From IMG/VR virus record IMGVR_UViG_3300030098_005028, positions 1 to 64,000 of that record: DNA of 64,000 nucleotides, one strand, 5' to 3'. The translations under genes were made by a program, and so were the position numbers. Positions 46,954 through 64,000 of this stretch are shown piece after piece (position 1 is the stretch's first letter; every line of letters starts with the position of its first letter). Under the pieces are notes generated by a model, which saw only the letters and a list, made by a program, of their open reading frames with translations, was not told the origin of the DNA and searched no databases. This stretch comes from a virus.

Positions 46954-48712
46954 TTTGGTATCTCATTGTTTCCGTTGTTGTAAAGATTGTTGTGTTATCC
47001 ATATCCTGTATAAAGTCATATGGAATTCTAGAAACCATACTGTATCCTTCTAAAAAAGAATCAATGTCATCTGGATTCATAAACCAGAAAGGTCTAAATT
47101 TTTTATTATCAAAATTTTCTAGACTTGCACATGTTTTGGTATCTGTACAAGTCATATCTTCTATAATTATTTCTTTAGCAGAAGATTCTGTTATATCTTT
47201 TAGTATTTTTGAAGGTTCTTTTTCATATTGTACTTTTGATTTTATGTATACGACATCAGACTCCTGTAAATCAAACGTATACTCAACGTCTTCATATAGG
47301 GCATCCAATAGAGATGAAACCTCATCTTTTTCTTCTACAATGATTGAGTACCTCTTATGTTGGCCTTCTTCTATTGATGAAATTAGTCCATGATATTTTT
47401 TCTTGAAGTGTGGCAGGTCAATGCACACATCTTCTTCTTTCTGCCTAACTTCTGGCTGTTCTGTTTTTATACTAATTACTTGATCAAAAGAGTCATACAT
47501 CCCTTTATATAGTCTGCTTGATTTCTGTCTTATTATTTTTGGGGATGGAATGTGAGTTATAAACTTCCCTCCTCGGTTGGCAAAGTCAACTTCTTTGGCG
47601 AATATTTCTTCGGTAAAATTCCAAGCTCCAAGAAAGGCATAATCTACACTATCATCGAAGTGAGATGGGTCTAGTATTGGAATATGCATTCCCGGTGAAA
47701 ATTTGTTTTGCTTTACCTCTGTATTATCTACAATGTAGTCGATTATTTCTGGGCCTATATTGCAATAGTTAAATATACATGTTGATTTTGATGTTGCTCC
47801 GTAGCTAACAATCTTGCTGCCGTTCTTCTTTATAGCCGTCAACATTTCTACTAGTTCATCTCTAGAACTCTGTACATTTCTGGCAAAGGCCTGATAGGTC
47901 TCCAGATTGTCTATTCCCATAGACTGTTCTTCTCTCAAAGAGGCTTCTACACATGGATCGACCTTTACATGAGAGTTTTCTTTGGTCTTTGCAAATACTC
48001 TATTAGAACCTCCATGAACACTGGTTCTTTGTACATCAAATATCTCCATACCTGCATTCTGAAGAAGATTATTCAAAGATGTTAAAGAGAAGAGGTGTGC
48101 GTGTTCATCATATATCTGGTCATAAGAATTTCTTATAAGCATGTCTACAACACAAGGGTCTTCAAAGATAAACACACCATTAGTATCATCCAGAACGTGT
48201 CTAACCGCATGAAATGCCTCTTGTATGTCTGGAATATGACACATACAGTTTGCAGAGTAAACTAAATCCACAAAATAAAGATCTTTGATCTTCTTTGCAG
48301 ATTCCATGTTCCAGAACACATTGAATGTGTCGTAGCCCATTTCTCTGGTCATCTCAGCAAAATTTCCACACGGCTCTACTGATATCGCTTTATTGGTATC
48401 AAAGTGTTTCAAAAATACTCCGTCATTGCTTCCTATTTCTAGTATTCTGCGATATGGATTAGACTCAATCTCTTTAGCAACAGAAGCAAAGTGATCCCTC
48501 ATTGTCTGCGAACCTGAAGAATGATACATGTAGCTATCATTAAACATTAGTGGTGGATCTACAAATTCCATCAGAGAAACTAGTTTAGTCTCATCATCAA
48601 ATCCTACTTTCATGTCAAAGAAAAATTCTTCTTCATTGCTTTCTAGTTGTTCTTTTGTTAGGAAACCATTTGCTATTGGATGTCTTCCTAAGTCTAAAAA
48701 TTCGGTCTGCAT
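46931..48712 (-). CDS. NDP-hexose C-methyltransferase fused to an extra C-terminal domain
   Basis: LDLG..PIANGF, EIGSNDG, YDQIYDEH, VHGGS, YGATSK, LGAWNF; about 200 extra aa. Confidence 0.85.
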   Translation of the reverse strand: MQTEFLDLGRHPIANGFLTKEQLESNEEEFFFDMKVGFDDETKLVSLMEFVDPPLMFNDSYMYHSSGSQTMRDHFASVAKEIESNPYRRILEIGSNDGVFLKHFDTNKAISVEPCGNFAEMTREMGYDTFNVFWNMESAKKIKDLYFVDLVYSANCMCHIPDIQEAFHAVRHVLDDTNGVFIFEDPCVVDMLIRNSYDQIYDEHAHLFSLTSLNNLLQNAGMEIFDVQRTSVHGGSNRVFAKTKENSHVKVDPCVEASLREEQSMGIDNLETYQAFARNVQSSRDELVEMLTAIKKNGSKIVSYGATSKSTCIFNYCNIGPEIIDYIVDNTEVKQNKFSPGMHIPILDPSHFDDSVDYAFLGAWNFTEEIFAKEVDFANRGGKFITHIPSPKIIRQKSSRLYKGMYDSFDQVISIKTEQPEVRQKEEDVCIDLPHFKKKYHGLISSIEEGQHKRYSIIVEEKDEVSSLLDALYEDVEYTFDLQESDVVYIKSKVQYEKEPSKILKDITESSAKEIIIEDMTCTDTKTCASLENFDNKKFRPFWFMNPDDIDSFLEGYSMVSRIPYDFIQDMDNTTIFTTTETMRYQNDKLVSH

Positions 48713-49038
48713 CTCAACTCCTTGTGCGGTTCTATCTTTTCTAAATCTAATGCCTCAAAAGAGTTGAAGCATCTGTCGCAAATCATTACATCGTATGCGG
48801 GTTTTTTGAATCTGAGTTCATGGTATTTGACTCCATATTTTTCAAATTGAGATTTCGTAAGTTCAGTCCAATCTTCACCGCTTACACTTCCTCTAGCTGT
48901 CCAATAAACTATGTGATGCCCTTCATCATATAATTTGTTTGCTTTTTCAATATTTTTAATTATTGGCTTTGCTTTTTTATAGTTACAATTTTTACTTTGT
49001 GTAAATATGGTATTATCTATATCTATGTATATTTTCAT
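48694..49038 (-). CDS. HAD-family phosphatase (capsule-biosynthesis type)
   Basis: DIDNT, WTARG, KP.YD..ICDR. Confidence 0.85.
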   Translation of the reverse strand: MKIYIDIDNTIFTQSKNCNYKKAKPIIKNIEKANKLYDEGHHIVYWTARGSVSGEDWTELTKSQFEKYGVKYHELRFKKPAYDVMICDRCFNSFEALDLEKIEPHKELRCRPNF

Positions 49039-49688
49039 CGTGTCATGTAATGAGACCTCAAAACTAGTCTCTCATTTCCTTCTCTAAGAACTCCTCCAAA
49101 GTGAAATATATCGCTATCAAATATCAATAAATCACCAGCTTTTCCGGTCATCGGTGTCGAATCTTTTTTAGATATATCAAGATGTGGATAGTCTATTTCT
49201 ATTCTGTTTTTTACTTGACTATAATCTGATGAGTTAGACCAAGCTTTTTTTCTTAGCTGTGCGCCTAGATATCTACTTCCTTTTACGACACTAAAAGGGC
49301 CACAGTCCTCATCACAATCAGTTAGGTAAAGAAAAAATTTAAGAGTATGAAATCTATCAAAATGGAGATATCCGTTTCTAGCAAGTTCTTCATTAGCTAT
49401 ATAATCATGAGTCGCTTGGATTGCGTGTAAGTAGTTATCACCTAAGTACTCTTGTTTTGTTGACTTTATCAATTCATTATCGAATACTTTTCTTACTTCG
49501 CTTGAAGGAGGAGCCAGATTTTCCAATGGTATGAAGTTGAGTGCTTTTCCAAATTGATAGCCTCCTTCTGAAAAATTTTCTATTTTTTCCAACACTTCTT
49601 GCTTTATTGTTTCTATATCTTCTAAAGGAACAAACCCTTCTAGTTTGACTATGCCTTCTTTCAGTATTTCTCTAGGTAGATCTTGCAT
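49035..49688 (-). CDS. Phytanoyl-CoA dioxygenase-family 2OG-Fe(II) oxygenase
   Basis: LHFD, YLTD...GPF.VVKGS, AGDLLIFD...H.G....R. Confidence 0.8.
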   Translation of the reverse strand: MQDLPREILKEGIVKLEGFVPLEDIETIKQEVLEKIENFSEGGYQFGKALNFIPLENLAPPSSEVRKVFDNELIKSTKQEYLGDNYLHAIQATHDYIANEELARNGYLHFDRFHTLKFFLYLTDCDEDCGPFSVVKGSRYLGAQLRKKAWSNSSDYSQVKNRIEIDYPHLDISKKDSTPMTGKAGDLLIFDSDIFHFGGVLREGNERLVLRSHYMTR

Positions 49689-51473: not shown

Positions 51474-52543
51474 GACATTGTTCTCAAAAAACCTTGTAAA
51501 TTATCTATTTCTTGCTCACAAAGAGAGTAAGTATCTTCTAAAAAGTAGTACTGTTCTGGCAAATCTATATTAAAAGGGTTTAGTGAACCCACTATTGTTT
51601 GTAAATCTATTAGCCTTGAATCATCACAATACTTTTTAGATTCATCTATCTTACTGACAAGAAGGTCAACATCATCGACTCTGGGGGTGTACATTTCTAT
51701 ATAGCATTTTCTAAAATGATCCCTGCATACATCAAAATCCTCGCCATCACACATAGACATCGCAAATGTGATGCCATCTGTCATTTTAGCAAAGTTCTCA
51801 GGCCATTCACCCTGTCTAATCCATGTATTTTGATCTGGAAAATGTATGTGTCTTTCTCCTCCTTCCACCCTTGGTGTACCATGCTCATGAATAATGTGAC
51901 AGAAAGAATTGTCTCTCATACCGTCTCCCCAAATTATGCTTAGAAACCCTATCATTTGATCGCAGAATCTAAGGTTAGATGGGCTAAGATACCATAATAT
52001 GCTCCAATTCATTTGTGCCGATTGAGTTCTTATAACATTATGCCAATTGCTGTGAAATCTTGTTGCTTGACTGTGAATTCTTTCTGCCGATGTGTCTCCT
52101 GTGATTGACTCAGGAAATTCGGTATACATAGGAGATCTTTCTTCGATTCCTCTCTCTCCAATATGCACCCCTGTCTTTCCCCCTCTAGCCGAACAGAAAT
52201 CTCTATTTTTGTTTAAGAAATCAATACAAGACTTTATTCCATTTATTGTAAAAAAATCATCATTGTCTATAACCATACATAGGGGCGTTTCGACTGCTAG
52301 TAATGATCTAGCGACTTTTCCATAGAAATCCTGAACTGTTTTGTCATATGGAAATCTAAGATATTCAATTTTCAATCCATCATAATAGTTTGATTCTATG
52401 CTTTTTTGTATTCTTGAGTCTATTTCTCCCCCATCAGCTATGACCAAAGGGAAAGGGCATTCTATTTCATACAAATAAGCCAAGAGACGGCGAGAATAGA
52501 ACTCTCTGCCTTTGATTGGTAATACTAGTGTTAGATCATTCAT
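51470..52543 (-). CDS. GT2-like glycosyltransferase (TIGR00180-like)
   Basis: LTLVLP...R, VIADGG, DNDDF. Confidence 0.75.
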   Translation of the reverse strand: MNDLTLVLPIKGREFYSRRLLAYLYEIECPFPLVIADGGEIDSRIQKSIESNYYDGLKIEYLRFPYDKTVQDFYGKVARSLLAVETPLCMVIDNDDFFTINGIKSCIDFLNKNRDFCSARGGKTGVHIGERGIEERSPMYTEFPESITGDTSAERIHSQATRFHSNWHNVIRTQSAQMNWSILWYLSPSNLRFCDQMIGFLSIIWGDGMRDNSFCHIIHEHGTPRVEGGERHIHFPDQNTWIRQGEWPENFAKMTDGITFAMSMCDGEDFDVCRDHFRKCYIEMYTPRVDDVDLLVSKIDESKKYCDDSRLIDLQTIVGSLNPFNIDLPEQYYFLEDTYSLCEQEIDNLQGFLRTMS

Positions 52544-53252
52544 TTAATTCTCTTTTCATTTTATCTAGATTCATAGAGGTATCTTTTGGCATTATTTCAC
52601 TAATATCTTCTAGATATATTTTTCCAACATCTGGATTATCTTTTTTTGCGAATTCATATATGCTAGACGATTTTCCTCCTATGTTTATTGTTCCTTTCTT
52701 GTCTAAAAGCATAAGTATTATGTCTGCTACGTCATCATCATATATTAGACTTTTTTTAGAATCTGCTATCGCTGATTTATGAGGAAATGGCTTAGAACAC
52801 ATCGCTACTCTTAGGATGAGATGATTGTCGTGCATTCTTACAGCACATTCGCCTCCAAGTTTAGACCAAGCATACTTATTTATTGGTAATATCGGGTCTT
52901 CTTCTTTGTAGTCTCCAGTCAATCCGGGATAAACAAAGTCAGTTGATATATAAACAAGCTTTATCCCCATCATTATGCAGGTCGCAGCGACATGAGATGT
53001 TCCAACAATATTAGTATGCAGGCTTTCCAAAGGGTTATTATCATGAATATTCATTGGCCGTGTCAATGCGGCGGTATGTATGATTACATCTGGCTTTACA
53101 GCACCAACCCAAAATGTAATGTCTGACATTGATTTGATATTCATCTCCCCTTTTGGAGGAGCGACTATGTCATGATTACGACTACGGTTTGACTGAATTA
53201 TTTTTTTTGCCAGCTTTCCTTCGCCGCCGGTAATTAATATCTTCATACCCAA
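52536..53252 (-). CDS. rmlD: dTDP-4-dehydrorhamnose reductase-like SDR
   Basis: TGGEGKL, YISTDFVY.G, YKEED...PINKYAWSKL.GE. Confidence 0.8.
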   Translation of the reverse strand: MGMKILITGGEGKLAKKIIQSNRSRNHDIVAPPKGEMNIKSMSDITFWVGAVKPDVIIHTAALTRPMNIHDNNPLESLHTNIVGTSHVAATCIMMGIKLVYISTDFVYPGLTGDYKEEDPILPINKYAWSKLGGECAVRMHDNHLILRVAMCSKPFPHKSAIADSKKSLIYDDDVADIILMLLDKKGTINIGGKSSSIYEFAKKDNPDVGKIYLEDISEIMPKDTSMNLDKMKRELNE

Positions 53253-54144
53253 GTAACTCCAGAGTTTCAGCTATTGCATTTTCAACTTTTCCGCAAGGTC
53301 GCCATTCAGTTAACTCTAATAGCTTTTTATTACTGACCTTATAACTATGTTGATTTAATAATGGGGTATCAACAAATTCTACATCAAGATGACTGACATA
53401 CTTCTTTATTTCTTCTACAATTTCTGAAAGCTTGTGATTGTCTGTCAAGACATTGTATGTCTGATTATATACAAGCTCTTCGTCTAGTATATGTCTCATT
53501 AATGAACATAGATCTGACAGGCACAAATATGGCCTATAATGATGATAATTTTGTTTCCAAACACTAAGAGGCTTGTTAAAAGCTGCTTGATAACAGAATT
53601 TATTTATTGCAGTATGGAATCTCATTCCATTGCTAATTCCGTATATAGTACCAAGCCTTAAAATTATATATTTAGTTTCTTGTAGGTTTTCATTAATCCA
53701 GTCTTCTACCCATACCTTCGTCTCAGCGTAAGGGCTTTGTGCATTTACATATTTTTTATCTTCATTTACTAATTTATCTGAAGTTCCGTAGACACTGGTC
53801 GAAGATGGAAATATTACTGTCTTTACTTTTGAATGTTCTACCTTAGTTAAAAATTTACAAGTCTGTTCTACATTAACTTTCCAAACCCATTTTGGATCTC
53901 TAAAGCTAGATGCAGCATCAGTTATAGCTGCCAAATGAATAACAGCATCAAATTTATCTAAAAAAGATTTGTCTAAATCAATAAATGAATGGTCAACAAA
54001 CCTAATATTTTTTTCTAGATTGAATAATGAGCAGTACCTCTGAGTACTTAAATTGTCACATACAGTTAGATCGTAATCAGATAAAAACCTAATCAAGCCC
54101 GATCCTATATGTCCAAGACCGCCTGTTATTAAGATTCTTTCCAT
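53182..54144 (-). CDS. NAD-dependent epimerase/dehydratase
   Basis: TGGLGHIG, HLAA, SSTSVYG, SPYAETK. Confidence 0.9.
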   Translation of the reverse strand: MERILITGGLGHIGSGLIRFLSDYDLTVCDNLSTQRYCSLFNLEKNIRFVDHSFIDLDKSFLDKFDAVIHLAAITDAASSFRDPKWVWKVNVEQTCKFLTKVEHSKVKTVIFPSSTSVYGTSDKLVNEDKKYVNAQSPYAETKVWVEDWINENLQETKYIILRLGTIYGISNGMRFHTAINKFCYQAAFNKPLSVWKQNYHHYRPYLCLSDLCSLMRHILDEELVYNQTYNVLTDNHKLSEIVEEIKKYVSHLDVEFVDTPLLNQHSYKVSNKKLLELTEWRPCGKVENAIAETLELLGYEDINYRRRRKAGKKNNSVKP

Positions 54145-54545
54145 TCTAAAAATTCCTCATAATTTCTTATGTAATCTTCTTCCATATAAAGATGGCTACA
54201 CAAAACTAAAAGTACAGAGTTATTTGTAGTGTAAACTTGCTCTGCCCAAACCCCAGCGGGTATGATAATTCCTTTACTTGCAGAGTTTATATGTATCGTT
54301 TGCTGTTCTTTTCCGTCTTTTAGTATTACAGTAATTCCACCATTTATACATACTAAGAGTTGTTCAGTCATTACATGTGCATGACCACCACGCTTTTCCC
54401 CTGCACTAACTCCATAAACATAGAATACTCTTTGGAAGTCAAAAGGTGCTTCTTTCAAGTTTTCTATTACTGTTAGGTTTCCTCTTTCGTCAGAGAATGT
54501 AGGCAAGTCAATTCTTTGAATATTCATTTGTTTTCTGTTTCCCAT
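54129..54545 (-). CDS. FdtA/QdtA-type sugar 3,4-ketoisomerase (cupin)
   Basis: DERGNLTVIE, RVFYVY, RGGHAH, VLLVLCS..Y...DYIR.Y. Confidence 0.88.
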   Translation of the reverse strand: MGNRKQMNIQRIDLPTFSDERGNLTVIENLKEAPFDFQRVFYVYGVSAGEKRGGHAHVMTEQLLVCINGGITVILKDGKEQQTIHINSASKGIIIPAGVWAEQVYTTNNSVLLVLCSHLYMEEDYIRNYEEFLEWKES

Positions 54546-54973
54546 TCTTCACCAAAGTCACCAACCTTGGCTCTGAATTCATCTGAAGGATCATATTTTT
54601 CTGATAGATAGTATAGCATTATTGAGTTTGGCTCCAACGCTTGGTATCCATGATAAACTCCCGGTGGTATTTTTATTACTCTTTGTTCTCTTTCAGTAAT
54701 ATATAAGAACTCTGTTTTCTCTCCAGTTGACAAGCCAACTTTAAAAGAGCCTTTTATGCATACCCAAAAGTCAGTCTGTTTTTCATGCTTGTGCCAAGCA
54801 ACTATATGTTTAGTTGAATTAACATAAGAAATATTGATTTGCCCTTTCATAGAATCCTTCCCTGTAAATGAATCGTCAAATACATCTAAGTATCTTTCAG
54901 CACGATCATCTATATGGAAAGGAATCTTTTTGGCGTAATAGTTTTTTTTAGGAGATTTATCTGACTTTTTCAA
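54524..54973 (-). CDS. rmlC: RmlC-like dTDP-sugar 3,5-epimerase (cupin)
   Basis: DDR, AWHKHEKQTD, IPPGVYHGY, YY.SEKYDPSDE. Confidence 0.7.
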   Translation of the reverse strand: MKKSDKSPKKNYYAKKIPFHIDDRAERYLDVFDDSFTGKDSMKGQINISYVNSTKHIVAWHKHEKQTDFWVCIKGSFKVGLSTGEKTEFLYITEREQRVIKIPPGVYHGYQALEPNSIMLYYLSEKYDPSDEFRAKVGDFGEEWETENK

Positions 54974-55647
54974 AACAATATCCCCTGACTTATCATTTCT
55001 TCTGCTTTTTCTAAATCTTCAGCGGTATCAATGTCTACATACATTGATCTTGGTATTTCGACACCTTTGACATTTCCGACAAAAAAGTTTTTGTGTTCTC
55101 TAATATGAGACCAGTGAGACATATAGAACGAACCATTTGGCTTGTAGTATTTTTGGATGAATTTGCTGTTTGTCAATCCAGAAGTTAGGTTGTCAAAAAC
55201 TGGAAAAACGCTGTCATTCCTCTTAATCATAGCGAGTTGTATTGGTTCAGAATATTCACTAATACTAACTACAGAGTCACATTCTCGGAGAATCTCAATC
55301 GCTTTCGATATATCTTCTGTCTTCCTAAAAGGACATGTTGGCAAAAAGTAAGAAAAGACATCGTGTCTTTCCACATCTTGCATCATAGCAATTAACGCAG
55401 AAAGAACCGTTGCTTTCTCTGTAGCATACTCAGCAGGCCTATCATATATTTCTACGTCGTAATCCTTCGCTACATCTTTTATTTCTTGTGAGTCAGTAGA
55501 TACAATAATAGTATCAAATTCTCCAGAGTCTATTACTGTCTCTATTGTATGAACAATGAGTGGTCTGCCTCCTAAAAGACGAATGTTCTTATCTTTTAGT
55601 CTAGTCGATCCACCTCTCGCCGGTATAACAGCTAGTCTTGTGATCAT
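54970..55647 (-). CDS. neuA: Acylneuraminate cytidylyltransferase (NeuA-type CMP-ulosonate synthetase)
   Basis: IPARGGSTRL.DKN, VSTDS, RP..YA, PTCPFR, PNGSFY, DIDT.EDL. Confidence 0.85.
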   Translation of the reverse strand: MITRLAVIPARGGSTRLKDKNIRLLGGRPLIVHTIETVIDSGEFDTIIVSTDSQEIKDVAKDYDVEIYDRPAEYATEKATVLSALIAMMQDVERHDVFSYFLPTCPFRKTEDISKAIEILRECDSVVSISEYSEPIQLAMIKRNDSVFPVFDNLTSGLTNSKFIQKYYKPNGSFYMSHWSHIREHKNFFVGNVKGVEIPRSMYVDIDTAEDLEKAEEMISQGILF

Positions 55648-56366
55648 CCTTTTCTCCTTAGATAGCCATCTGGATGACAGGAGAACAATAGTTTGTTGCG
55701 AATCCTTTCATCTCTCTCAAAATTTTCATTAGAATCCAGAAACTCATTCAAAGCGGTTCGTGGGTTATTTCCTTTACCCCATTCTTTATCTCTGTGAAGT
55801 TTTGGCATGTCTTCAATAACAGTGTCTGCACAAATCAAGTAGCATCCTTCACTTACCAGTTCACTATATATATTAAGTTCTTTTAGTACATGTTCATGTG
55901 TATGGTGAGAGTCGAGTATTACCATGCATTTACCATCTACCTTGTTTTTTATTTGATCTAATGTTTCTTTGTGTAAAGAAGAGCCTTCTAGAAATATCAA
56001 CTCTACTCCAATATTTTTTTTAGTTACTCTATCTAACATGTCTTCTGGCATGTAGATGTCGATACCTATTAATGATTTGCCACCATACATAGCCATTAAT
56101 GTCGAGTAAAATAGTGATGATCCTCCCCAAGCTACTCCTACCTCAATAATATGGTCTGGCTTAGTATCAAGAATTATTTCTTGTATTGCAAACATATCTT
56201 GCGGTAACTGAAGGACTGGTTCTCCTTGCCAATTAGTTTGGTTAATCCAGTGATAACTGTCAGCATGACACAAAGTGCTTATTGCCTTATTCTTCAAAGA
56301 TTTGTCTTCCCACATATCTTTTGCTTCAGACAGTCGTAGTTCCTCAAATTCTTCCCTAGTGTACAC
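55644..56366 (-). CDS. CmcI/rhamnosyl O-methyltransferase family
   Basis: W.GEP.LQLPQD, KPD.IIE.GVA.GGS, LDSHHTHEHVLKEL, WGKGNNP, PDGYL. Confidence 0.9.
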   Translation of the reverse strand: MYTREEFEELRLSEAKDMWEDKSLKNKAISTLCHADSYHWINQTNWQGEPVLQLPQDMFAIQEIILDTKPDHIIEVGVAWGGSSLFYSTLMAMYGGKSLIGIDIYMPEDMLDRVTKKNIGVELIFLEGSSLHKETLDQIKNKVDGKCMVILDSHHTHEHVLKELNIYSELVSEGCYLICADTVIEDMPKLHRDKEWGKGNNPRTALNEFLDSNENFERDERIRNKLLFSCHPDGYLRRKG

Positions 56367-57123
56367 AGGCTTTGATCTCCTCTTGTTTTGTAATCAAATA
56401 ATCGACTCTAGAAAGATCTATTTGGCAGTCGGCATCTGAAGTAGACGAAGGAGGATGAGGATGAACCTCGGCAAATACAGCGTCATAGCCAAACACGCCA
56501 GATGATAGAAGATATTTTTCTGCTAATGACCTATCTCCTTGAGTACCATACACATGCCTGCTTCTTTGTGTAGAGTGAGTACAGTCAATTACAACTTTGT
56601 CATAACACTTTTTCAATTCTTCTATAATAGTAAAATCGACAATCAACTTGTCGTAACCATAGTTAGAACCCCTGTCGCATACCCATGCCTCTGTACTAGG
56701 GTCTGTATCTTTAATTTTATCTAAAGACTTAATCAGGTTGTTAGGCCCGATCCACTGACCCTTCTTTATGTTTACTTTGTCAAATGACTGAGCAGAAGCA
56801 ACTATTAGGTCTGTTTGACGACATAGAAAAGCAGGGATTTGCACCAAGTCAATCACACCAGCAAGCTTTTCTACCTGCCACACTTCATGAATATCTGTGG
56901 TTAATTTTATAGTAGGGTGCTTTTCTTTTACCTCACGAAAAAGTTCAATCCCTTCTTCCAAACCAACACCACGTCCTCCGTATAAAGAAGTACGATTAGC
57001 TTTATCAAAAGAGGCTTTATAATACCAGTCACGATCACCCATTATTTCTACTAAGTGATCAGCCGTATTTAGGTACATCTCCCTGTTGTCAATAGTACAA
57101 GGCCCTAGTATCCAAGTGGTCAT
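56356..57123 (-). CDS. kdsA: 3-deoxy-8-phosphooctulonate (Kdo-8-P) synthase family
   Basis: GPC, KASFDKANRTS, TTDIHE, QIPAFLCRQTDL, NIKKGQ, DCTHS. Confidence 0.92.
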   Translation of the reverse strand: MTTWILGPCTIDNREMYLNTADHLVEIMGDRDWYYKASFDKANRTSLYGGRGVGLEEGIELFREVKEKHPTIKLTTDIHEVWQVEKLAGVIDLVQIPAFLCRQTDLIVASAQSFDKVNIKKGQWIGPNNLIKSLDKIKDTDPSTEAWVCDRGSNYGYDKLIVDFTIIEELKKCYDKVVIDCTHSTQRSRHVYGTQGDRSLAEKYLLSSGVFGYDAVFAEVHPHPPSSTSDADCQIDLSRVDYLITKQEEIKACVH

Positions 57124-58007
57124 TTAACAATCTCCAAAATTTTAGCAATTCTCTTTTTCTCTGTAGGTGTGACAGAAGGAAAGGGATGCCTATTGTAATC
57201 ACAAAATCCTAGCTGACGAAGAGCCTCCCTCATCGCCTTGTGCCATCCAATTGACATAAACACATCGAATAACTGTGTCTCTTTATGGATGTAGAACATA
57301 CTTTTTGTCTTAAAGTATTCTATTTCTTGCTTTGGAAACATACTTCCAATGCCAGAGACGAAGGATTGTACACCGGTGGGTTGTAGCGCATTGAAGCGAC
57401 GAATACTCCCGCCAGCAACTATAACACAGAAATTCTTCTTGTCAATATCTTTGCATACATTAAATGCCAATCCGAGGTCAGAAGTTTCTTCTTTCATGCC
57501 AAATATGTTTTTATGAGAAGAAATCTTATTAATTAATTCTGCTGTATAATCATAAGACCCTCCAGTTCCCTTACGCATGAACATACCATGAAATATTACG
57601 GGTAACTTACTTCTATCTGCTATCTTATGAAAGTAGCTAACAATGGTCTTATCGTCATAATATCTATCAGGATAAAGAGCCATTAAAAAAGTTTTATTAC
57701 TTTTCTTCATCTTTTCGTTATAAAAGTCAACATCATCAAGTACAGACCGTAAATCTTTTCCCTGAAGACCAATTATCTTTGTATTTACGAAAGAGTCATA
57801 GAGAGTAAAGTTGAGAGAAAATATTTCTTCCTTACTTAGAAGATTATATTGAGAAGTCCCTGCTGTAGTCATAACGCATTTTGCGCCATTTGATTGCAAG
57901 TATGATATGTACTTTTTTGTCTTTGCTAGATCTAGGTCTCCGTTTCTTTTATAAGAAGGAGGCAACGCAAAAGATGGTGTGTCGCATAACATTTTTGACT
58001 TATTCAT
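57120..58007 (-). CDS. DHDPS/N-acetylneuraminate lyase-family class I aldolase
   Basis: G.LDL, TAGTSQ..LLS..E, YF..IAD...LP, N..GMKEE (Schiff-base Lys). Confidence 0.8.
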   Translation of the reverse strand: MNKSKMLCDTPSFALPPSYKRNGDLDLAKTKKYISYLQSNGAKCVMTTAGTSQYNLLSKEEIFSLNFTLYDSFVNTKIIGLQGKDLRSVLDDVDFYNEKMKKSNKTFLMALYPDRYYDDKTIVSYFHKIADRSKLPVIFHGMFMRKGTGGSYDYTAELINKISSHKNIFGMKEETSDLGLAFNVCKDIDKKNFCVIVAGGSIRRFNALQPTGVQSFVSGIGSMFPKQEIEYFKTKSMFYIHKETQLFDVFMSIGWHKAMREALRQLGFCDYNRHPFPSVTPTEKKRIAKILEIVK

Positions 58008-58641
58008 AAGATATAATTAATCCTTTGTCTATCAATTCTTTTATTTTAGATCTTTCATATTTGTAGTGATGGGTCATATGAGTCCCTTTGTCTTCCCAGT
58101 AATGCTGCGCGAACTCGTCATTCAACCCAAAACCGAATATATGAGGTATGACACCAACACGAATACATAGGTGTATTATCGCAAAACCTATGCTTGGTCT
58201 TCTATGGCCCGTGTTAACTTGACATATGTGTTGTATTGAAGAGTAGTCTCCTAGATAAGGATCGCAAGACGAATGTATGTTCTCATGTCTTGACCTCCAT
58301 TCATCACCCCTGCCGTTATGTTCATTAGTCTGTGGGCCAATCATTAATATTTTCATATTTCTAAGATCTTTGACGAAGTTTGCTGGTTGACCTTTGTTCG
58401 TCCAGTTGCCGACTCTTGGGTGCGGCACATTTGAAAATACATGTTGATTAGCAACACGAATAGTGGTTCTAGAACCTACATGGGTTTCATAGCTTTCTGT
58501 TGGCGCTCTGTTAAATCTAACTATGTCGTCGAATTCGTCAATGAATTCACCGTATGTTCTATTAAGTATAGATGGACTAGAAGCAATTATTGCTATGTTG
58601 TTACTTACATCTAGGTCTGGAGTTACATATTGAAGTATCAT
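58000..58641 (-). CDS. GT29 (sialyltransferase-family) glycosyltransferase
   Basis: Sialylmotif L (IAIIASS...GEFIDEFDDIVRFNRAP...HVGSRTT), S (PSIG....C......FGF), III (HYWE), VS (HHYKYE); AGGAGG supports ATG 58641. Confidence 0.85.
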   Translation of the reverse strand: MILQYVTPDLDVSNNIAIIASSPSILNRTYGEFIDEFDDIVRFNRAPTESYETHVGSRTTIRVANQHVFSNVPHPRVGNWTNKGQPANFVKDLRNMKILMIGPQTNEHNGRGDEWRSRHENIHSSCDPYLGDYSSIQHICQVNTGHRRPSIGFAIIHLCIRVGVIPHIFGFGLNDEFAQHYWEDKGTHMTHHYKYERSKIKELIDKGLIISYE

Positions 58642-59321
58642 CCACAACATCCTCCTGAACTTACATTTTCAATAGCACCTAAGTCTTTTAAGAGAAGAAC
58701 GTCTACTGAGTCTTCTTCTCCGTTTGGATTTGTGCCAAATGTATCCCATTTGAATATCGTATACCCATTTTTCTTTATTGTTTGCAAAAACTCTGACTTG
58801 TTATATGAAAATTTATATGTCTTTATTCCGTATGGTGTTTGATAAACTTCGCTATTACTTTTTTCTTTTGTTATTGGTATTCTCTGCAAAATTATCATAT
58901 TTGCGCATATGCTAAGTATGTGTTCTAGGCATTCATTTCCATTTGGTAGTATGTCTATCAGCCCATTAACAACAATAAGGTCATTATCAAAAATATCATC
59001 CCACTTGATATCTTGATAAGATTTGTTATAAAAACTACCAATCTCTCCAAATGATTCACTTGCTAGGTCAACTGCCTCTTTTGAATAGTCATACCCTATG
59101 TATTGAACATCCTCAAACTCTTGCGCTACTATCATTGAGTAGGCACCACACCCACAACCAATGTCAATAACTCTAGAAATTCTCTTCCTTACCATCGTTG
59201 CCTGATCAACAAAATGGTGCCAATGTGCAGGCCATTCATTTTGAAACTGGCTTATGTTAAGTCTTAATTGCTGTACAAATACATCTCTGTTTTTCCATGA
59301 GTCAATGTGTTCGGAATTCAT
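58638..59321 (-). CDS. Class I SAM-dependent methyltransferase
   Basis: VIDIGCGCG, YIGYDYS. Confidence 0.85.
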   Translation of the reverse strand: MNSEHIDSWKNRDVFVQQLRLNISQFQNEWPAHWHHFVDQATMVRKRISRVIDIGCGCGAYSMIVAQEFEDVQYIGYDYSKEAVDLASESFGEIGSFYNKSYQDIKWDDIFDNDLIVVNGLIDILPNGNECLEHILSICANMIILQRIPITKEKSNSEVYQTPYGIKTYKFSYNKSEFLQTIKKNGYTIFKWDTFGTNPNGEEDSVDVLLLKDLGAIENVSSGGCCG

Positions 59322-60195
59322 TTAGCTGATCCTCAAACCTTTTTTTCAACTTGTCCATATTCTGTAGAATTATCTCTGGGTGTTCTTCTTCAAAAGGCTT
59401 TGTTCTACAAGAGCCTCTTACACTAGGTTTGAACTCATGAACACCGTCATACTCTTCTTCTATTCGACTTCTGGTTGATTGACTTCCAGTAACCCAAGGA
59501 AGGTATACATTTTCAAAATAATCATCAATACAATTTTGTTTACTTACCGCTGCTTTATAGTAGCTTACTTTTTGTTTTACTTGTTGAGGGAAGACGTAGC
59601 TGTAGTGATACATTCTGACACCAAGTTTTTCATCCAGCGTATTATGGTCTAGGTGTCTTTTTGGCAATCTTTCGTGTATAGGTATCGTGTGAGCTATAGT
59701 AGGAGGTCTATGTGTTGCCCAATAAGAACCCGGATATACCTTTCGGATTCTCATAAATTCTGCTCCTTCTTCAAATCCTCCTAATACATTATCAAATCCC
59801 CCATAGAAACTTCTGCTTCTGAAACCTACTGAAGTGATTTTGAACTCTTCCAATACCTCCATGATCGTTTCAATATCTCTTGACTTGAATACTTCATCAC
59901 AATCTAAGTTCCATATGTAATCATTGTCTTCATCCAAAAGTTTCATATATGTATTGCACTGATGATCCTTTTCCTGATATTGGCTACTTACGATCTGTAT
60001 TTTATTTTCAGGGTCTGGAATAGAATTCAATACTTCTATGGTTCCATCTGTAGACTTGGATAGTCCTTGTTGTTGCCAGTATGTTACTGGGCCTTCAGCA
60101 ATCAAAATTTGATTTGCATATGGGTAAACAGATTTTATGCACTCTTCAAGTACATAGTTTCCATTAAGAACAATCATTCCAAAGGCTATCTTCAT
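59302..60195 (-). CDS. GT2-like glycosyltransferase
   Basis: MIVLNG....ECI.SV, STDGT, LDCDE, YHYSY. Confidence 0.8.
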   Translation of the reverse strand: MKIAFGMIVLNGNYVLEECIKSVYPYANQILIAEGPVTYWQQQGLSKSTDGTIEVLNSIPDPENKIQIVSSQYQEKDHQCNTYMKLLDEDNDYIWNLDCDEVFKSRDIETIMEVLEEFKITSVGFRSRSFYGGFDNVLGGFEEGAEFMRIRKVYPGSYWATHRPPTIAHTIPIHERLPKRHLDHNTLDEKLGVRMYHYSYVFPQQVKQKVSYYKAAVSKQNCIDDYFENVYLPWVTGSQSTRSRIEEEYDGVHEFKPSVRGSCRTKPFEEEHPEIILQNMDKLKKRFEDQLNEFRTH

Positions 60196-61100
60196 AGTTT
60201 ATATGTACTCTTTATCATGTATGTGCAGTCATAGTAATTGTCGTAAACATCTTTTATTCCTAAGTTAGGCAATATATTTCCCCATTCTCCATGCCTGTCT
60301 ACTCTATATAAACCCTCATCATAGTTAGGATTGAAATGGGAGAAGTGATTGAAAACTAAATCTTGAGTCACTTTCCCCTGCTTCATTACAAATTGAGAGT
60401 CCCACATTATTTTCTTATCTTGTATTTCAGCATGAGGAAAATTCCAAGGCGCACCATGCCCTATGTCTTCGTCTATAATTTTTACATTGTTCTGACCAAA
60501 TATCTCCCCAAACAACTCTAGGTACTTTTGATCTCCGCATGTGCCATGTGTGACAGAAAACCTATTATTAGTATCAACAACCACATCCTTCCAAAAACTT
60601 GAGCAGGGCAGACCTACCTCATCGTTACGGAAGTACACAATACCTACATTGTAATAACCAGTACGGCTATTAGACTCAAGCGATTGGTGCTTATGGGTAA
60701 TTAATCCAATAGAGTAATTATCTACACAGTCAAATATGACTCGTGGGTCTTTATAAAATAGAATATCGGAGTCCACATAGAGACACTCACTACATTTTTT
60801 CAATACAAAGTTTGTAAAGAAGGCCGACAAAGCCCAATGAAATTCACAATGACCATCAGGATGTGTTCCATCGTCCCTAGCGTTATTCTTCTTTAGTAGT
60901 TCAAAGTCGTCACTAGCTAAATCATCCAACCTATACGGAATAATCTCTCTGAAGTTTATATCGTTTAACTTGTGATAGGCAGTATCATCTGTACAAAGAT
61001 AATGTAATTCAAATGGTTCTGATGCGTACTGCCTTATCGAATGATACATCGTAAGACCATATGTAAGATATTTACTGTCTGAAAGAGTTGCGAATATCAT
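60192..61100 (-). CDS. GT-A glycosyltransferase
   Basis: YVDSDILF (DxD), YNVG.VYF, GDQKYL, APWN. Confidence 0.8.
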   Translation of the reverse strand: MIFATLSDSKYLTYGLTMYHSIRQYASEPFELHYLCTDDTAYHKLNDINFREIIPYRLDDLASDDFELLKKNNARDDGTHPDGHCEFHWALSAFFTNFVLKKCSECLYVDSDILFYKDPRVIFDCVDNYSIGLITHKHQSLESNSRTGYYNVGIVYFRNDEVGLPCSSFWKDVVVDTNNRFSVTHGTCGDQKYLELFGEIFGQNNVKIIDEDIGHGAPWNFPHAEIQDKKIMWDSQFVMKQGKVTQDLVFNHFSHFNPNYDEGLYRVDRHGEWGNILPNLGIKDVYDNYYDCTYMIKSTYKL

Positions 61101-61132
61101 TTTATGTAAAACCTAATTTTTATCTTAATATG

Positions 61133-61918
61133 TCATTTTAATTTGATGTAGGATATCCATGTATAATCTGACGCTTCATTTGCGTATATGTCAAAATCTT
61201 TCTTGCGATCTGTTAATAAAGGGTCTGCCGTAATGTCTAGGTACTGCTGCCTGCTGATTTTAGCCCATTTATAGCCACGATCAGAATCTACGGCAGAATA
61301 AATAGGAGGAAACTCATAGTATATCTCTATGTTGTCTTTCAGCCATTGTGCATCTTTTGTATTCAATAATAAGGACGACTTAGGAGAATATGACCTTTCG
61401 CCTTCACTCAAAGGCTCCATGTTGGCAACATTTCCATAAACCGGATGATAGCTATTACCTCTTCCATCGTGGTAGTTATCTTCGTACAGTATGTGTGTAA
61501 ACCCATGATGTGCGGCTTGTTTTACTCTATCAAGACCATAGTGGTCATCAAAAAAGCATAGTGTCTTGCTTTTATCAACTGAGTCCCAATTGATATTGTT
61601 AAAATCTGTAGTTGTGTATTTTATGCGTGGCGATATATATTGTCGAACAAGAAGGTTTGGATCAATAGATATAATTTTTGCATTTGGACATGTAGTTTCT
61701 AGTAGCCAAGAACTTTGGCCTTTCCATATACCACTTTCAATAATGTATTCAGGTTGAAGCTGTCTACACAAGAACCATGTAGCAAACATATGGGAGGAAG
61801 ACATTCCTCCTCCGTTATTACGAATCGGACGAGACGCATATACTCTCAAAAAATCTTCTAGGGAATCAATTAGGTTTTTGTTTTCCCACTGTACTTTTCC
61901 TATAGTCTCATACTTCAT
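61133..61918 (-). CDS. Putative SAM-dependent methyltransferase
   Basis: P..IIESG.WKG.SSW, ISIDP, FFDDH, EDNY. Confidence 0.6.
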   Translation of the reverse strand: MKYETIGKVQWENKNLIDSLEDFLRVYASRPIRNNGGGMSSSHMFATWFLCRQLQPEYIIESGIWKGQSSWLLETTCPNAKIISIDPNLLVRQYISPRIKYTTTDFNNINWDSVDKSKTLCFFDDHYGLDRVKQAAHHGFTHILYEDNYHDGRGNSYHPVYGNVANMEPLSEGERSYSPKSSLLLNTKDAQWLKDNIEIYYEFPPIYSAVDSDRGYKWAKISRQQYLDITADPLLTDRKKDFDIYANEASDYTWISYIKLK

Positions 61919-61942
61919 AGGATAATCCCTTACTTGATAGCA

Positions 61943-63689: not shown

Positions 63690-63999
63690 TTAAAATCTCC
63701 AAACATTTTTCCGCTTCTTCTTTGTATTGTAAGTGACGTAGCAGACTATTTATCCTGTGGCAATATGTATGTTCTTTCATGACAGTCTCATAACAAGCCT
63801 CTGCATGAGACTTTCTTAAATTAGGACTATCAATAAAATATTCTATCATCTTGATAAATTCATTTTCGTCTCTTGCGACTGGCATCTCATTCTTTGTGAA
63901 TACATCTTCTACAAGAGAGTCTATATGATCGGAGATACAAAAAGACTTGCAAGCAGAAATTTTGAAAACTCTTTCATTAACTTCAAATCCAAACTTATT
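63676..63999 (-). CDS. CgeB-like GT-B glycosyltransferase, partial (5' end outside window)
   Basis: Frame stays open to the window edge: GFEVNERVFKISAC...ISD...HTYCHR. Confidence 0.7.
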   Translation of the reverse strand, partial: NKFGFEVNERVFKISACKSFCISDHIDSLVEDVFTKNEMPVARDENEFIKMIEYFIDSPNLRKSHAEACYETVMKEHTYCHRINSLLRHLQYKEEAEKCLEILNGNK

Positions 64000-64000
64000 T

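What the first reader, a model, noticed from the sequence alone, without database searches (positions are those of the whole stretch)
54970..58641. Hybrid ulosonic-acid pathway: KdsA + NAL-type aldolase + NeuA-type activator + GT29 transferase
Seen: GT29 with all four sialylmotifs and no membrane anchor, next to a class I aldolase, KdsA, an O-methyltransferase and a cytidylyltransferase with NeuA-type PTCPFR rather than KdsB-type QGDEP. A HAD phosphatase lies at 48694. No neuB, neuC, kdsB or waaA is in the window. Known: GT29 is mainly eukaryotic, bacterial sialyl/Kdo transferases use other families, and plant GT29s are implicated in Kdo/Dha transfer. Inference: the phage makes, CMP-activates and transfers a Kdo-like or new ulosonic acid. 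This is the strongest candidate for an undescribed system.
Basis: partly seen in the sequence, partly recalled or inferred. Interest (0 to 1): 0.9.

Follow-up and report, generated by a model that had tools for sequence, protein, structure and literature searches.

The report
Phage octulosonic-acid module with soluble GT29
An uncultured marine phage carries a membrane-free gene set that most likely makes an eight-carbon acidic sugar related to Kdo, activates it with CMP and attaches it with a miniature relative of animal sialyltransferases; the same uncharacterised gene set recurs in many phages and some bacteria.

Summary
Window 54970-58650 (minus strand) holds five overlapping genes:
- a 216-aa anchor-less GT29
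- a divergent DHDPS/NAL-superfamily protein
- a metal-type KDO8P synthase (KdsA)
- a CmcI-type methyltransferase
- a NeuA/PseF-type, not KdsB-type, cytidylyltransferase

A minimal HAD phosphatase and a PhyH dioxygenase lie about 6 kb downstream. The 143-kb genome (CheckV 95% complete) has no NeuB, NeuC, KdsC, KdsD or WaaA, and no second cytidylyltransferase.

The trio of aldolase-like gene, KdsA and NeuA-type activator recurs in 16 independent loci, phage and bacterial. Two sister phages are collinear up to the end of an 89%-identical GT29. One then carries DHDPS-KdsA and the other a NeuB cassette.

My reading: a cytoplasmic CMP-octulosonate module with a GT29 transferase, part of a 26-kb, 31-gene island with no membrane proteins. 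The sugar is Kdo or, more likely, a modified Kdo.

- The aldolase-like protein is not NAL-type. It keeps the Schiff-base Lys but has an invariant His where the catalytic Tyr should be. Its role is unknown.
- Bacterial GT29 and GT29-Kdo links are already published.

First-stage notes of this scan flagged similar cassettes in other phage genomes. Verdict: new variant of a known kind.

The parts
58000..58650 (-). Soluble 216-aa GT29-family glycosyltransferase ('mini-GT29'), the predicted inverting CMP-ulosonic-acid transferase
   Evidence: PF00777 E 3e-21. A profile of the family hits ST3Gal-I at E 1e-17. The AF2 model has pLDDT 92, and its top Foldseek hits are all animal GT29, followed by GT42 CstII. 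Motifs L, S, III and VS are conserved. The motif-L Cys is Ile19, and there is no anchor.
57120..58007 (-). Divergent DHDPS/NAL-superfamily class I (Schiff-base) enzyme, here called 'DHDPS-H': Lys172 kept, catalytic Tyr replaced by invariant His140, invariant GWH 254-256. Role unknown.
   Evidence: PF00701 38 bits. All NCBIfam equivalogs score far below cut-off. The alignment to S. aureus DHDPS places His at the Tyr position. The fold has TM about 0.8 to DHDPS, NAL and HOGA alike. It lies beside or within three genes of KdsA in all 16 KdsA-type loci examined.
56356..57123 (-). Metal-dependent 3-deoxy-8-phosphooctulonate (KDO8P) synthase, KdsA
   Evidence: NF003543 scores 247 bits against a cut-off of 242. 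Best PDB hit is Aquifex KDO8PS at E 2e-53, with the Cys/His/Glu/Asp metal ligands and the KANR(S/T), FLCRQTD, KKGQ, RG and THS substrate motifs conserved.
55644..56366 (-). CmcI / rhamnosyl O-methyltransferase-family SAM methyltransferase
   Evidence: PF04989 E 2.5e-61. It occupies the same position in L004, L005, L012 and L023, and is retained at 89% identity in L013 where the synthase cassette is NeuB-type.
54970..55647 (-). NeuA/PseF-type CMP-ulosonic-acid synthetase, the only CTP_transf_3 in the genome
   Evidence: PF02348 E 6e-27. PseF model 140 bits (below the 205.7 cut-off); KdsB models 66 bits or less. PDB NeuA E 1e-23 against KdsB 1e-12. Single copy in the genome.
48694..49038 (-). 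Minimal (114-aa) HAD phosphatase, candidate ulosonate-8-phosphate phosphatase
   Evidence: DIDNT motif I. Weak hit to the TIGR01689 capsule-phosphatase model. Homologues lie directly beside DHDPS-H in L021, L024 and L050. In the bacterial cassettes this position is held by a KdsC/YrbI-family phosphatase.
49035..49688 (-). PhyH-family Fe(II)/2-oxoglutarate dioxygenase, a recurrent accessory of the cassette and possibly a hydroxylase of the ulosonic acid
   Evidence: PF05721 E 1.4e-10. A PhyH gene lies inside or beside the cassette in L007, L023, L027, L054 and L055.
58638..59321 (-). Class I SAM methyltransferase, conserved immediately upstream of the GT29
   Evidence: Methyltransf_31/12/25. 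The pair of this methyltransferase and GT29 is conserved in L003-L006, L012-L018, L020 and L023.
59302..61100 (-). GT2 and GT8-like glycosyltransferases of the conserved backbone that precedes the GT29. They probably build the acceptor glycan.
   Evidence: Weak PF00535 and PF01501 hits. The order GT8-like, GT2, methyltransferase, GT29 is conserved across about 15 phage loci. The two Opitutales MAG loci (L046, L047) carry a GT29 and a GT8-like gene about 2.4-2.5 kb apart.

Best explanation
The region is the sugar-acid branch of a 26-kb, 31-gene phage glycan island (window 45557 to genome position 71341) in which every protein is soluble.

Proposed mechanism, with shown and inferred steps marked:
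1. KdsA condenses PEP with host arabinose-5-phosphate to give Kdo-8-phosphate. The enzyme identity and intact active site are shown; the substrate is inferred.
2. The small HAD phosphatase removes the phosphate (inferred from synteny in relatives).
3. The His-type DHDPS-like enzyme remodels the sugar, probably helped by the PhyH dioxygenase and a methyltransferase. The product is a Kdo derivative rather than plain Kdo (inferred). The DHDPS-like chemistry is unknown. My best guess is a Lys-Schiff-base reaction at C2 that acts on C3/C4, such as reversible aldol cleavage and re-formation (C4 epimerisation or editing), or elimination of the 4-OH.
4. A NeuA-type synthetase makes the CMP-sugar (family shown; substrate inferred).
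5. The cytoplasmic mini-GT29 transfers it with inversion onto a glycan built by the neighbouring GT2 and GT8-like enzymes (inferred).

Nothing in the island can export or flip a glycan. The acceptor is therefore most likely a soluble target in the infected cell, with virion proteins the leading candidate.

Within this phage lineage the synthase cassette is exchangeable (KdsA-type or NeuB-type). The terminal acidic sugar is thus a variable, serotype-like character.
For: Identity of each enzyme.

One pathway rather than two: the genome has a single ulosonate synthase and a single CMP-transferase. It has no NeuB, NeuC, KdsC, KdsD or WaaA.

Conserved synteny:
- DHDPS-H directly upstream of KdsA occurs in the window and in L003, L004, L005, L007, L012, L019, L020, L021 and L023, found through the GT29.
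- It also occurs in L048, L049, L050, L053, L054 and L055, found independently through DHDPS-H. That is 6 of 6 sampled contexts with KdsA and CTP_transf_3 within three genes.

Cassette swap: sister phages G001 and G003 share a terminase 58-59% identical to the window's. They are collinear at 83% nucleotide identity up to the last codon of an 89%-identical GT29. G001 then has DHDPS-KdsA (1.66 kb) and G003 has NeuB::AP_endonuc_2, DHDPS' and an APH kinase (3.6 kb). Collinearity resumes at CmcI. KdsA and NeuB are mutually exclusive in five related contigs.

A non-standard product is suggested by three things:
- All 11 cassette cytidylyltransferases tested are PseF/NeuA-like. The cultured cyanophage S-SCSM2R, which has KdsA without DHDPS-H, carries a true KdsB at 200.6 bits against a cut-off of 193.
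- The bacterial cassettes add a KdsC-family phosphatase and a methyltransferase.
- PhyH recurs beside the cassette.

Cytoplasmic setting: none of the 31 island proteins has a transmembrane segment. The GT29 lacks the anchor and the motif-L cysteine.

Precedent for GT29 using CMP-Kdo: plant RCKT1 (PMC11288761) and the E. coli K6 GT29-GT107 ORF (PMC13171606).
Against: - No biochemistry exists for any of these proteins.
- All KdsA active-site residues look canonical, so plain Kdo remains possible.
- The window's cytidylyltransferase is most similar (253 bits) to the one in a NeuB-type cassette (L024). Those in other KdsA cassettes score about 90-130 bits. The activator therefore says little about C8 versus C9 specificity.
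- The GT29 is 89% identical between a KdsA-type and a NeuB-type phage. Either it is promiscuous or it does not read the part of the sugar that differs.
- The role of DHDPS-H is a guess. Its catalytic Tyr is missing.
- The HAD and PhyH genes lie about 6 kb from the core in this phage, and their assignment rests on synteny elsewhere.
- The acceptor is unknown. The host's own undecaprenyl-phosphate machinery could be used.
- The phage is uncultured and its host is unknown, so the supply of arabinose-5-phosphate is assumed.
Confidence: 0.6

Rival explanations
1. Ordinary CMP-Kdo supply. The phage simply boosts or replaces host Kdo synthesis (KdsA, phosphatase, cytidylyltransferase), for LPS or capsule or for a plain Kdo cap. 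The DHDPS-like gene is a bystander or salvage enzyme.
For: KdsA passes an equivalog cut-off and keeps all catalytic and substrate-binding residues. Cultured cyanophage S-SCSM2R carries KdsA with KdsB. Plant GT29 RCKT1 is proposed to use plain CMP-Kdo (PMC11288761).
Against: In every one of the 16 KdsA-type loci examined, KdsA travels with DHDPS-H and a NeuA-type activator rather than a KdsB-type one. Methyltransferase and PhyH genes recur inside the cassette. The bacterial loci that carry the cassette are O-antigen or capsule-type clusters (L048, L049), not lipid A-core loci. The phage has no WaaA.
Confidence: 0.25
2. Two unrelated functions sit side by side. The GT29 transfers a host-made nonulosonic acid (sialic, legionaminic or pseudaminic acid), while KdsA and the DHDPS-like enzyme serve another purpose.
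For: The GT29 is 89% identical to that of a sister phage with a NeuB cassette. The activator is NeuA/PseF-like.
Against: The genes overlap and are translationally coupled. The GT29-DHDPS-KdsA order is conserved across diverged loci with 37-47% GT29 identity. KdsA and NeuB replace each other at exactly the same position. The genome has no NeuB.
Confidence: 0.08
3. The island decorates phage DNA, not protein or polysaccharide, with the ulosonic acid as part of a DNA-linked glycan.
For: The island lies inside the replication block, directly downstream of ssb and a DnaE fragment. All its proteins are soluble. Virus-encoded glycosyltransferases that hypermodify DNA with glycans are known (Pyle 2024, pmid 39154342, as cited in PMC12619734).
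Against: The genome has no thymidylate-synthase-family hydroxymethylase to create an attachment base. The same cassette sits in bacterial Wzx or ABC-transporter polysaccharide loci. About ten glycosyltransferases plus methylated and aminated deoxy-sugars would be unprecedented on DNA.
Confidence: 0.05

Closest known systems
Eukaryotic GT29 sialyltransferases (ST3Gal-I, ST8SiaIII, ST6Gal1) and plant GT29 RCKT1/MGP2, the putative CMP-beta-Kdo transferase of rhamnogalacturonan-II
   Same: Same Pfam family and same GT-A variant fold. Sialylmotifs L, S, III and VS are conserved. An inverting transfer from a CMP-activated 2-keto-3-deoxy acid is expected. RCKT1 sets a precedent for Kdo as a GT29 donor (PMC11288761).
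   Different: Only about 210 aa. It has no type II anchor or stem and no motif-L/S disulfide (Cys replaced by Ile), and it is cytoplasmic. It is encoded by a tailed phage and translationally coupled to the sugar's biosynthetic genes.
Bacterial GT29-like sequences (Petit et al. 2018, PMC5811610) and the E. coli K6 capsule GT29-GT107 ORF (PMC13171606)
   Same: Prokaryotic GT29 domains with sialylmotifs. The K6 protein is predicted to polymerise Kdo from CMP-Kdo.
   Different: Those are known only from sequence. They are mostly alphaproteobacterial or fused to GT107, and they are not linked to a cassette of DHDPS-like gene, KdsA and NeuA-type activator. The 2018 survey does not mention phage members.
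Canonical Kdo pathway KdsD-KdsA-KdsC-KdsB-WaaA, and the cyanophage S-SCSM2R KdsA+KdsB pair
   Same: It has KdsA with an intact metal-type active site, followed by a phosphatase step and then CMP activation.
   Different: It has no KdsD, and the phosphatase is a minimal HAD rather than KdsC. The activator is NeuA/PseF-type rather than KdsB. The transferase is GT29 rather than GT30 (WaaA). It adds an obligatory DHDPS-like enzyme plus recurrent methyltransferase and PhyH genes.
NeuB-NeuA-sialyltransferase cassettes for nonulosonic acids (Neu5Ac, Leg, Pse, Kdn)
   Same: Same logic of PEP-dependent synthase, NeuA-type activator and terminal transferase. Sister phages carry exactly such a cassette at the same locus.
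   Different: Here the synthase is a KdsA (C8) rather than a NeuB (C9), and no sugar-nucleotide precursor branch (NeuC, PseB/C, LegB/C) is attached to it.
DHDPS/NAL superfamily: DapA, N-acetylneuraminate lyase, KDG aldolase, and the dehydratases KdgD and L-KDA dehydratase (the last recalled from memory)
   Same: Same TIM-barrel fold with the Schiff-base lysine. It keeps equivalents of DHDPS T44/T45, Y107 and R138. All members act on 2-keto-3-deoxy acids, which is what Kdo is.
   Different: The catalytic Tyr133/137 is an invariant His, and there is an extra invariant GWH motif. Identity to any solved member is 18% or less. It fails every equivalog cut-off, and no member of this clade has been characterised.

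Membership tests
CAZy GT29 / Pfam PF00777 | Match to the family model above the curated threshold | tested here: met
   76.4 bits against a cut-off of 23. 74.2 bits in the genome search, with none of 14 control prokaryote genomes matching.
CAZy GT29 / Pfam PF00777 | Sialylmotifs L, S, III (HYWE-type) and VS (H...E) | tested here: met
   The family alignment shows invariant or near-invariant RFNR, PS.G...GFG, H183-Y-W-E186 and H194/195...E199. Motifs L, S and III align to ST3Gal-I.
CAZy GT29 / Pfam PF00777 | GT-A variant 2 fold of solved sialyltransferases | tested here: met
   AF2 model with pLDDT 92. The Foldseek matches listed down to rank 28 are all animal GT29 (E 1e-10 to 3.5e-7), followed by GT42 CstII.
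CAZy GT29 / Pfam PF00777 | Type II membrane anchor, stem and the conserved L-S disulfide of eukaryotic members | tested here: not met
   No hydrophobic N-terminus. The motif-L Cys aligns to Ile19. This feature is typical of eukaryotic members but does not define the CAZy family.
CAZy GT29 / Pfam PF00777 | Transfer from a CMP-activated ulosonic acid | not testable with these tools
   Inferred only from gene context.
KDO8P synthase (KdsA) | Equivalog-level model score | tested here: inconclusive
   NF003543 scores 247.2 against a cut-off of 242 (passes). TIGR01362 scores 238 against 314 and NF009109 scores 173 against 457 (both fail).
KDO8P synthase (KdsA) | Metal ligands Cys/His/Glu/Asp and the PEP and A5P binding motifs of Aquifex KDO8PS | tested here: met
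   GPC, THS, E.HP and SDA..Q are conserved, as are KANR(T), FLCRQTD, KKGQ and RG, in the alignment at E 2e-53.
N-acetylneuraminate lyase / DHDPS (class I pyruvate aldolases) | PF00701 match and TIM-barrel fold | tested here: met
   38 bits against 22.1. TM about 0.8 to many DHDPS and NAL structures.
N-acetylneuraminate lyase / DHDPS (class I pyruvate aldolases) | Schiff-base lysine | tested here: met
   Lys172 aligns to the catalytic Lys of S. aureus DHDPS and is invariant in 59 family members.
N-acetylneuraminate lyase / DHDPS (class I pyruvate aldolases) | Catalytic tyrosine (DHDPS Y133 / NAL Y137) | tested here: not met
   It aligns to His140, which is invariant in the family, including the NeuB-associated forms.
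N-acetylneuraminate lyase / DHDPS (class I pyruvate aldolases) | Specific affinity to NAL rather than to other subfamilies | tested here: not met
   The best NCBIfam hits are dapA, KdgD and KDG-aldolase models, all below 40 bits and far under their cut-offs. Structural hits to DHDPS, HOGA and NAL are equivalent.
CMP-NulO synthetase (NeuA/PseF/LegF) versus CMP-Kdo synthetase (KdsB) | Higher score to NeuA/PseF models than to KdsB models | tested here: met
   PseF 139.9 bits against 65.6 or less for KdsB models. PDB NeuA E 1e-23 against KdsB 1e-12. A true phage KdsB scores 200 bits on a KdsB model, as a control.
CMP-NulO synthetase (NeuA/PseF/LegF) versus CMP-Kdo synthetase (KdsB) | Equivalog cut-off for any named specificity | tested here: not met
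   PseF scores 139.9, below the 205.7 cut-off, and no other equivalog is reached. The sugar specificity is open.
KdsC (Kdo-8-P phosphatase, YrbI family) | Match to TIGR01670 | tested here: not met
   No match in the phage genome. The 114-aa HAD hits only TIGR01689 weakly. The bacterial versions of the cassette do carry a protein that passes TIGR01670.

The most novel reading that the evidence does not exclude
The invariant partnership of His-type DHDPS-like enzyme, KdsA, NeuA-type activator and methyltransferase or PhyH makes a previously undescribed eight-carbon ulosonic acid, for example a C4-epimerised, hydroxylated and/or O-methylated Kdo. This would be a new branch of ulosonic-acid biosynthesis. 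A large family of cytoplasmic phage mini-GT29 enzymes would cap virion-protein glycans with it, and phages would swap C8 and C9 cassettes to vary this surface sugar.
Probability: 0.35. Interest if true: 0.85.

Novelty: new variant of a known kind. Interest (0 to 1): 0.68.

Why it matters
- It would add a new enzyme step, and probably a new sugar, to the small set of known 2-keto-3-deoxy sugar-acid pathways (Kdo, Kdn, sialic, legionaminic and pseudaminic acids).
- It shows that the sialyltransferase family thought of as eukaryotic has a large, compact, soluble branch in tailed phages. Such enzymes could be easy-to-express tools for attaching ulosonic acids.
- It gives a clean natural experiment: two sister phages with the same transferase and either a C8 or a C9 synthase cassette. 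This allows study of donor specificity in GT29.
- It provides a concrete candidate for sugar-acid-capped virion glycosylation in marine phages, with possible consequences for host recognition, stickiness and grazing.

Tried and rejected
- Megablast of the region against 50,697 phage records found nothing.
- A single-sequence scan of IMG/VR with the GT29 found nothing. A 66-sequence alignment was too diverse to seed scans. The 8-sequence alignment worked.
- PHROGs gave no hits for the structural proteins, and only weak terminase matches. The terminase is at most 26% identical to cultured phages, so host and taxonomy could not be assigned. There are no tRNAs in the window.
- Literature searches for the DHDPS-KdsA cassette, phage GT29 and PF00777 found no description of this module.
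- The structure search for the DHDPS-like protein did not single out any subfamily, so it did not reveal a function.
- I considered that DHDPS-H might supply the aldose substrate by cleaving KDPG, DAHP or Kdo-8-P. I rejected this as chemically circular, on reasoning alone.
- I considered DNA glycosylation. It is unlikely given the absence of a ThyA-family hydroxymethylase.
- I did not run complex prediction, because no binding claim is made.

Full report
**Where the window lies**

The window is the first 64 kb of a 143,058-bp IMG/VR virus record that CheckV rates 95% complete. It carries a terminase and a plus-strand structural block. The terminase is at most 26% identical to those of cultured phages. 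From about 45.5 kb, a long run of overlapping minus-strand genes begins.

**Check of the observation**

Pfam and NCBIfam identify five contiguous, overlapping minus-strand genes:

| Coordinates | Gene | Support |
|---|---|---|
| 58000-58650 | GT29 | PF00777, E 3e-21 |
| 57120-58007 | DHDPS-family protein | PF00701, 38 bits |
| 56356-57123 | KDO8P synthase (KdsA) | NF003543, 247 bits against cut-off 242 |
| 55644-56366 | CmcI-type methyltransferase | PF04989, E 2.5e-61 |
| 54970-55647 | Cytidylyltransferase | Best model PseF, not KdsB |

- **GT29.** A profile of the GT29 and its seven closest relatives hits pig ST3Gal-I at E 1e-17, with motifs L, S and III aligned. An AlphaFold model (pLDDT 92) finds only animal sialyltransferases among its top Foldseek matches, followed by GT42 CstII. 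The motif-L cysteine of animal enzymes aligns to Ile19. The only hydrophobic peak is the buried motif-S helix.
- **KdsA.** It keeps the Cys/His/Glu/Asp metal site and every PEP and arabinose-5-phosphate contact motif of the Aquifex enzyme.
- **Cytidylyltransferase.** It matches NeuA structures at E 1e-23, against 1e-12 for the best KdsB, and it shows the PTCPFR motif.
- **HAD.** The 114-aa protein at 48694 has a DIDNT motif.
- **Absences.** The whole genome has no NeuB, no second CTP_transf_3, no SIS isomerase, no KdsC, no WaaA and no NeuC-type epimerase.

**The aldolase-like gene is not a NAL**

- It scores below 40 bits on the dapA, KdgD and KDG-aldolase models, far under their cut-offs.
- It is 15-18% identical to DHDPS, NAL and HOGA structures alike, although the fold matches at TM about 0.8.
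- In the alignment to S. aureus DHDPS the Schiff-base lysine is kept (Lys172), but the catalytic tyrosine is a histidine (His140).
- In 59 family members His140, Lys172-Glu173 and a GWH motif at 254-256 are invariant. The TTAGTSQ motif at 47-53 is nearly invariant (90% or more of members).

I call this clade DHDPS-H. It is large: 263 relatives at E below 1e-5 in the word-seeded search. ESM Atlas clusters of 417, 256 and 91 members are dominated by tailed phages, mixed, and Verrucomicrobiota respectively.

**Comparative genomics**

The mini-GT29 family (about 200 aa) is also large. It has 6,666 cluster representatives at E below 1e-3 and 120 below 1e-30. The nearest ESM Atlas clusters are 75-90% viral.

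Scanning IMG/VR with the family alignment gave 38 loci. The genome collection gave two Opitutales MAGs. Mapping the window's proteins onto all loci shows a conserved backbone: epimerase, unknown, GT8-like, GT2, methyltransferase, GT29. This backbone is followed by one of two kinds of cassette:

- **KdsA-type.** DHDPS-H and KdsA, with or without CmcI, and a NeuA-type activator nearby. Found in the window and in L003, L004, L005, L007, L012, L019, L020, L021 and L023.
- **NeuB-type**:
 - NeuB then activator (L008-L011).
 - A NeuB::SAF::AP_endonuc_2 fusion, then a DHDPS-H relative, an APH kinase and CmcI (L013-L015).
 - Activator then a NeuB fusion (L016).
 - NeuB, two SDRs, a cupin, a HAD, a DHDPS-H relative and an activator (L024).

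**A clean cassette swap**

Contigs G001 (L023) and G003 (L013) both have a terminase 58-59% identical to the window's. They are collinear at 83% nucleotide identity up to the end of a GT29 that is 89% identical in protein. G001 then has 1.66 kb of DHDPS-H and KdsA, where G003 has 3.6 kb of the NeuB cassette. Collinearity resumes at CmcI, also 89% identical. KdsA and NeuB are mutually exclusive across five related contigs. In a GT29 tree the two cassette types are interleaved.

This argues that the GT29 uses whatever CMP-ulosonic acid the adjacent cassette makes. It also argues that the acidic sugar is a variable character of this phage lineage.

**The cassette outside phages**

I started independently from DHDPS-H homologues on long contigs. 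All six sampled contexts carry KdsA and a CTP_transf_3 within three genes.

- A Spirochaetota MAG and a JGI contig have KdsC-family phosphatase, DHDPS-H, KdsA, class I methyltransferase and activator. These sit inside loci with Wzm/Wzt or Wzx. The phosphatases pass TIGR01670.
- L050 has GT29, a small HAD, a DHDPS-H::sulfotransferase fusion, KdsA, a methyltransferase and an activator.
- L053 and L054 also include a GT29.

All ten cassette activators tested from relatives, phage or bacterial, KdsA- or NeuB-linked, are PseF/NeuA-like. As a control, the cultured cyanophage S-SCSM2R has KdsA without DHDPS-H, and its neighbour is a true KdsB at 200.6 bits against a cut-off of 193.

Relatives of the window's small HAD sit directly beside DHDPS-H in L021, L024 and L050. 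PhyH dioxygenases recur in or beside the cassette in L007, L023, L027, L054 and L055. In the window these two genes overlap each other at 48694-49688.

**The wider island**

Upstream of the window's end the operon continues with GT4s, a GT2 and a nucleotidyltransferase. It runs up to ssb and a DnaE fragment, ending at about genome position 71341. Downstream it holds dTDP-sugar genes, FdtA-type isomerases, a C-methyltransferase and a DegT aminotransferase. None of the 31 proteins has a transmembrane segment. The genome has no ThyA-family hydroxymethylase.

**Interpretation**

The best-supported reading is a cytoplasmic route to a CMP-activated eight-carbon ulosonic acid and its transfer by the mini-GT29:

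1. KdsA makes Kdo-8-P. The enzyme identity is shown. The substrate, host arabinose-5-P, is inferred, because the phage has no isomerase.
2. The small HAD dephosphorylates it (inferred from synteny).
3. The NeuA-type enzyme activates the sugar (family shown, substrate inferred).
4. The GT29 transfers it with inversion (inferred).

KdsA is strictly coupled to DHDPS-H and to a NeuA-type rather than a KdsB-type activator. Methyltransferase and PhyH genes also recur. Together these suggest the sugar is a modified Kdo rather than Kdo itself. This is inference.

What DHDPS-H does is unknown. Every characterised member of its superfamily forms a lysine Schiff base at C2 of a 2-keto-3-deoxy acid, which is exactly what Kdo is. 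My rough split of its possible roles:

| Candidate role of DHDPS-H | Rough weight |
|---|---|
| Reversible aldol chemistry at C3-C4 (epimerisation or editing) | 35% |
| Pyruvate-dependent alternative synthase | 20% |
| KdgD-like elimination of the 4-OH | 15% |
| Something else | 30% |

The acceptor is also unknown. An island with no membrane protein favours a soluble target such as virion proteins, as in mycobacteriophages (Freeman 2023, PMC10527164, cited via PMC12619734). The host's lipid-carrier machinery cannot be excluded.

**Comparison with the literature**

- GT29 is no longer strictly eukaryotic. 23 bacterial sequences with sialylmotifs were reported in 2018, in a paper whose text does not contain the words 'virus' or 'phage' (PMC5811610).
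- An E. coli K6 GT29-GT107 ORF is predicted to make poly-Kdo (PMC13171606).
- The Arabidopsis GT29 RCKT1 is the putative CMP-Kdo transferase of rhamnogalacturonan-II (PMC11288761).
- I found no paper describing the cassette of DHDPS-H, KdsA and NeuA-type activator, or the phage mini-GT29 family. The library searched is incomplete.
- First-stage notes of this scan flagged GT29-NeuB-NeuA and KdsA-aldolase-GT29 cassettes in other phage genomes. My locus survey agrees with them.

**Verdict**

The module is widespread rather than unique. Its distinctive, uncharacterised element is the His-type DHDPS-like enzyme, not the GT29 as such. I rate it a new variant of a known kind, with interest 0.68.

Noticed in passing
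L013:6621-10213 and L016:7225-9114: NeuB is fused to a SAF domain and a xylose-isomerase-like TIM barrel (AP_endonuc_2). In L013 it is followed by a DHDPS-H relative and an APH-family kinase. This is an unusual nonulosonic-acid cassette that may pass through a phosphorylated intermediate.
   Followed up: partly
L050:8001-9308; also L003, L004, L005, L009, L049: In L050, DHDPS-H is fused to a Sulfotransfer_4 domain. Sulfotransferase genes of several families recur next to the cassette, which hints at sulfated ulosonic acids or glycans.
   Followed up: no
window 45557-64000 and genome 64001-71341: None of the 31 proteins of the glycan island has a predicted transmembrane segment. There is no flippase, polymerase, ABC exporter or initiating phosphoglycosyl transferase.
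   Followed up: yes
LR756508.1 (uncultured 484-kb phage), around 324887-325342: A huge phage record holds four separate places with similarity to the mini-GT29 (35% identity at the best one). It is the only hit among 50,697 deposited phage records.
   Followed up: no
L046:5983-10015 and L047: Two Opitutales (Verrucomicrobiota) MAGs carry a mini-GT29 (36% identity) with a GT8-like gene about 2.4-2.5 kb downstream, as in the phage backbone. This is a possible clue to the host or the donor lineage.
   Followed up: no
L053:7355-7555 and L054:6626-6805: A tiny DUF6356 ORF (59-66 aa) lies beside the activator gene: between KdsA and the activator in L054, and directly after the activator in L053.
   Followed up: no
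window 10588-42308: Apart from weak terminase matches, none of the large structural proteins tested hits any PHROG family, and only one has a weak sub-threshold Pfam hit. The phage belongs to a lineage without cultured relatives.
   Followed up: partly
genome 71717-73348 (L051:8717-10348): The ORF upstream of ssb has only the finger, HhH and OB domains of DNA polymerase III alpha.
   Followed up: no
window 54970-55647 versus L024:10603-11283: The window's cytidylyltransferase is much closer (253 bits) to the one in a NeuB-type cassette than to those of other KdsA-type cassettes (about 90-130 bits). The activators appear to be shuffled independently of the synthase.
   Followed up: partly
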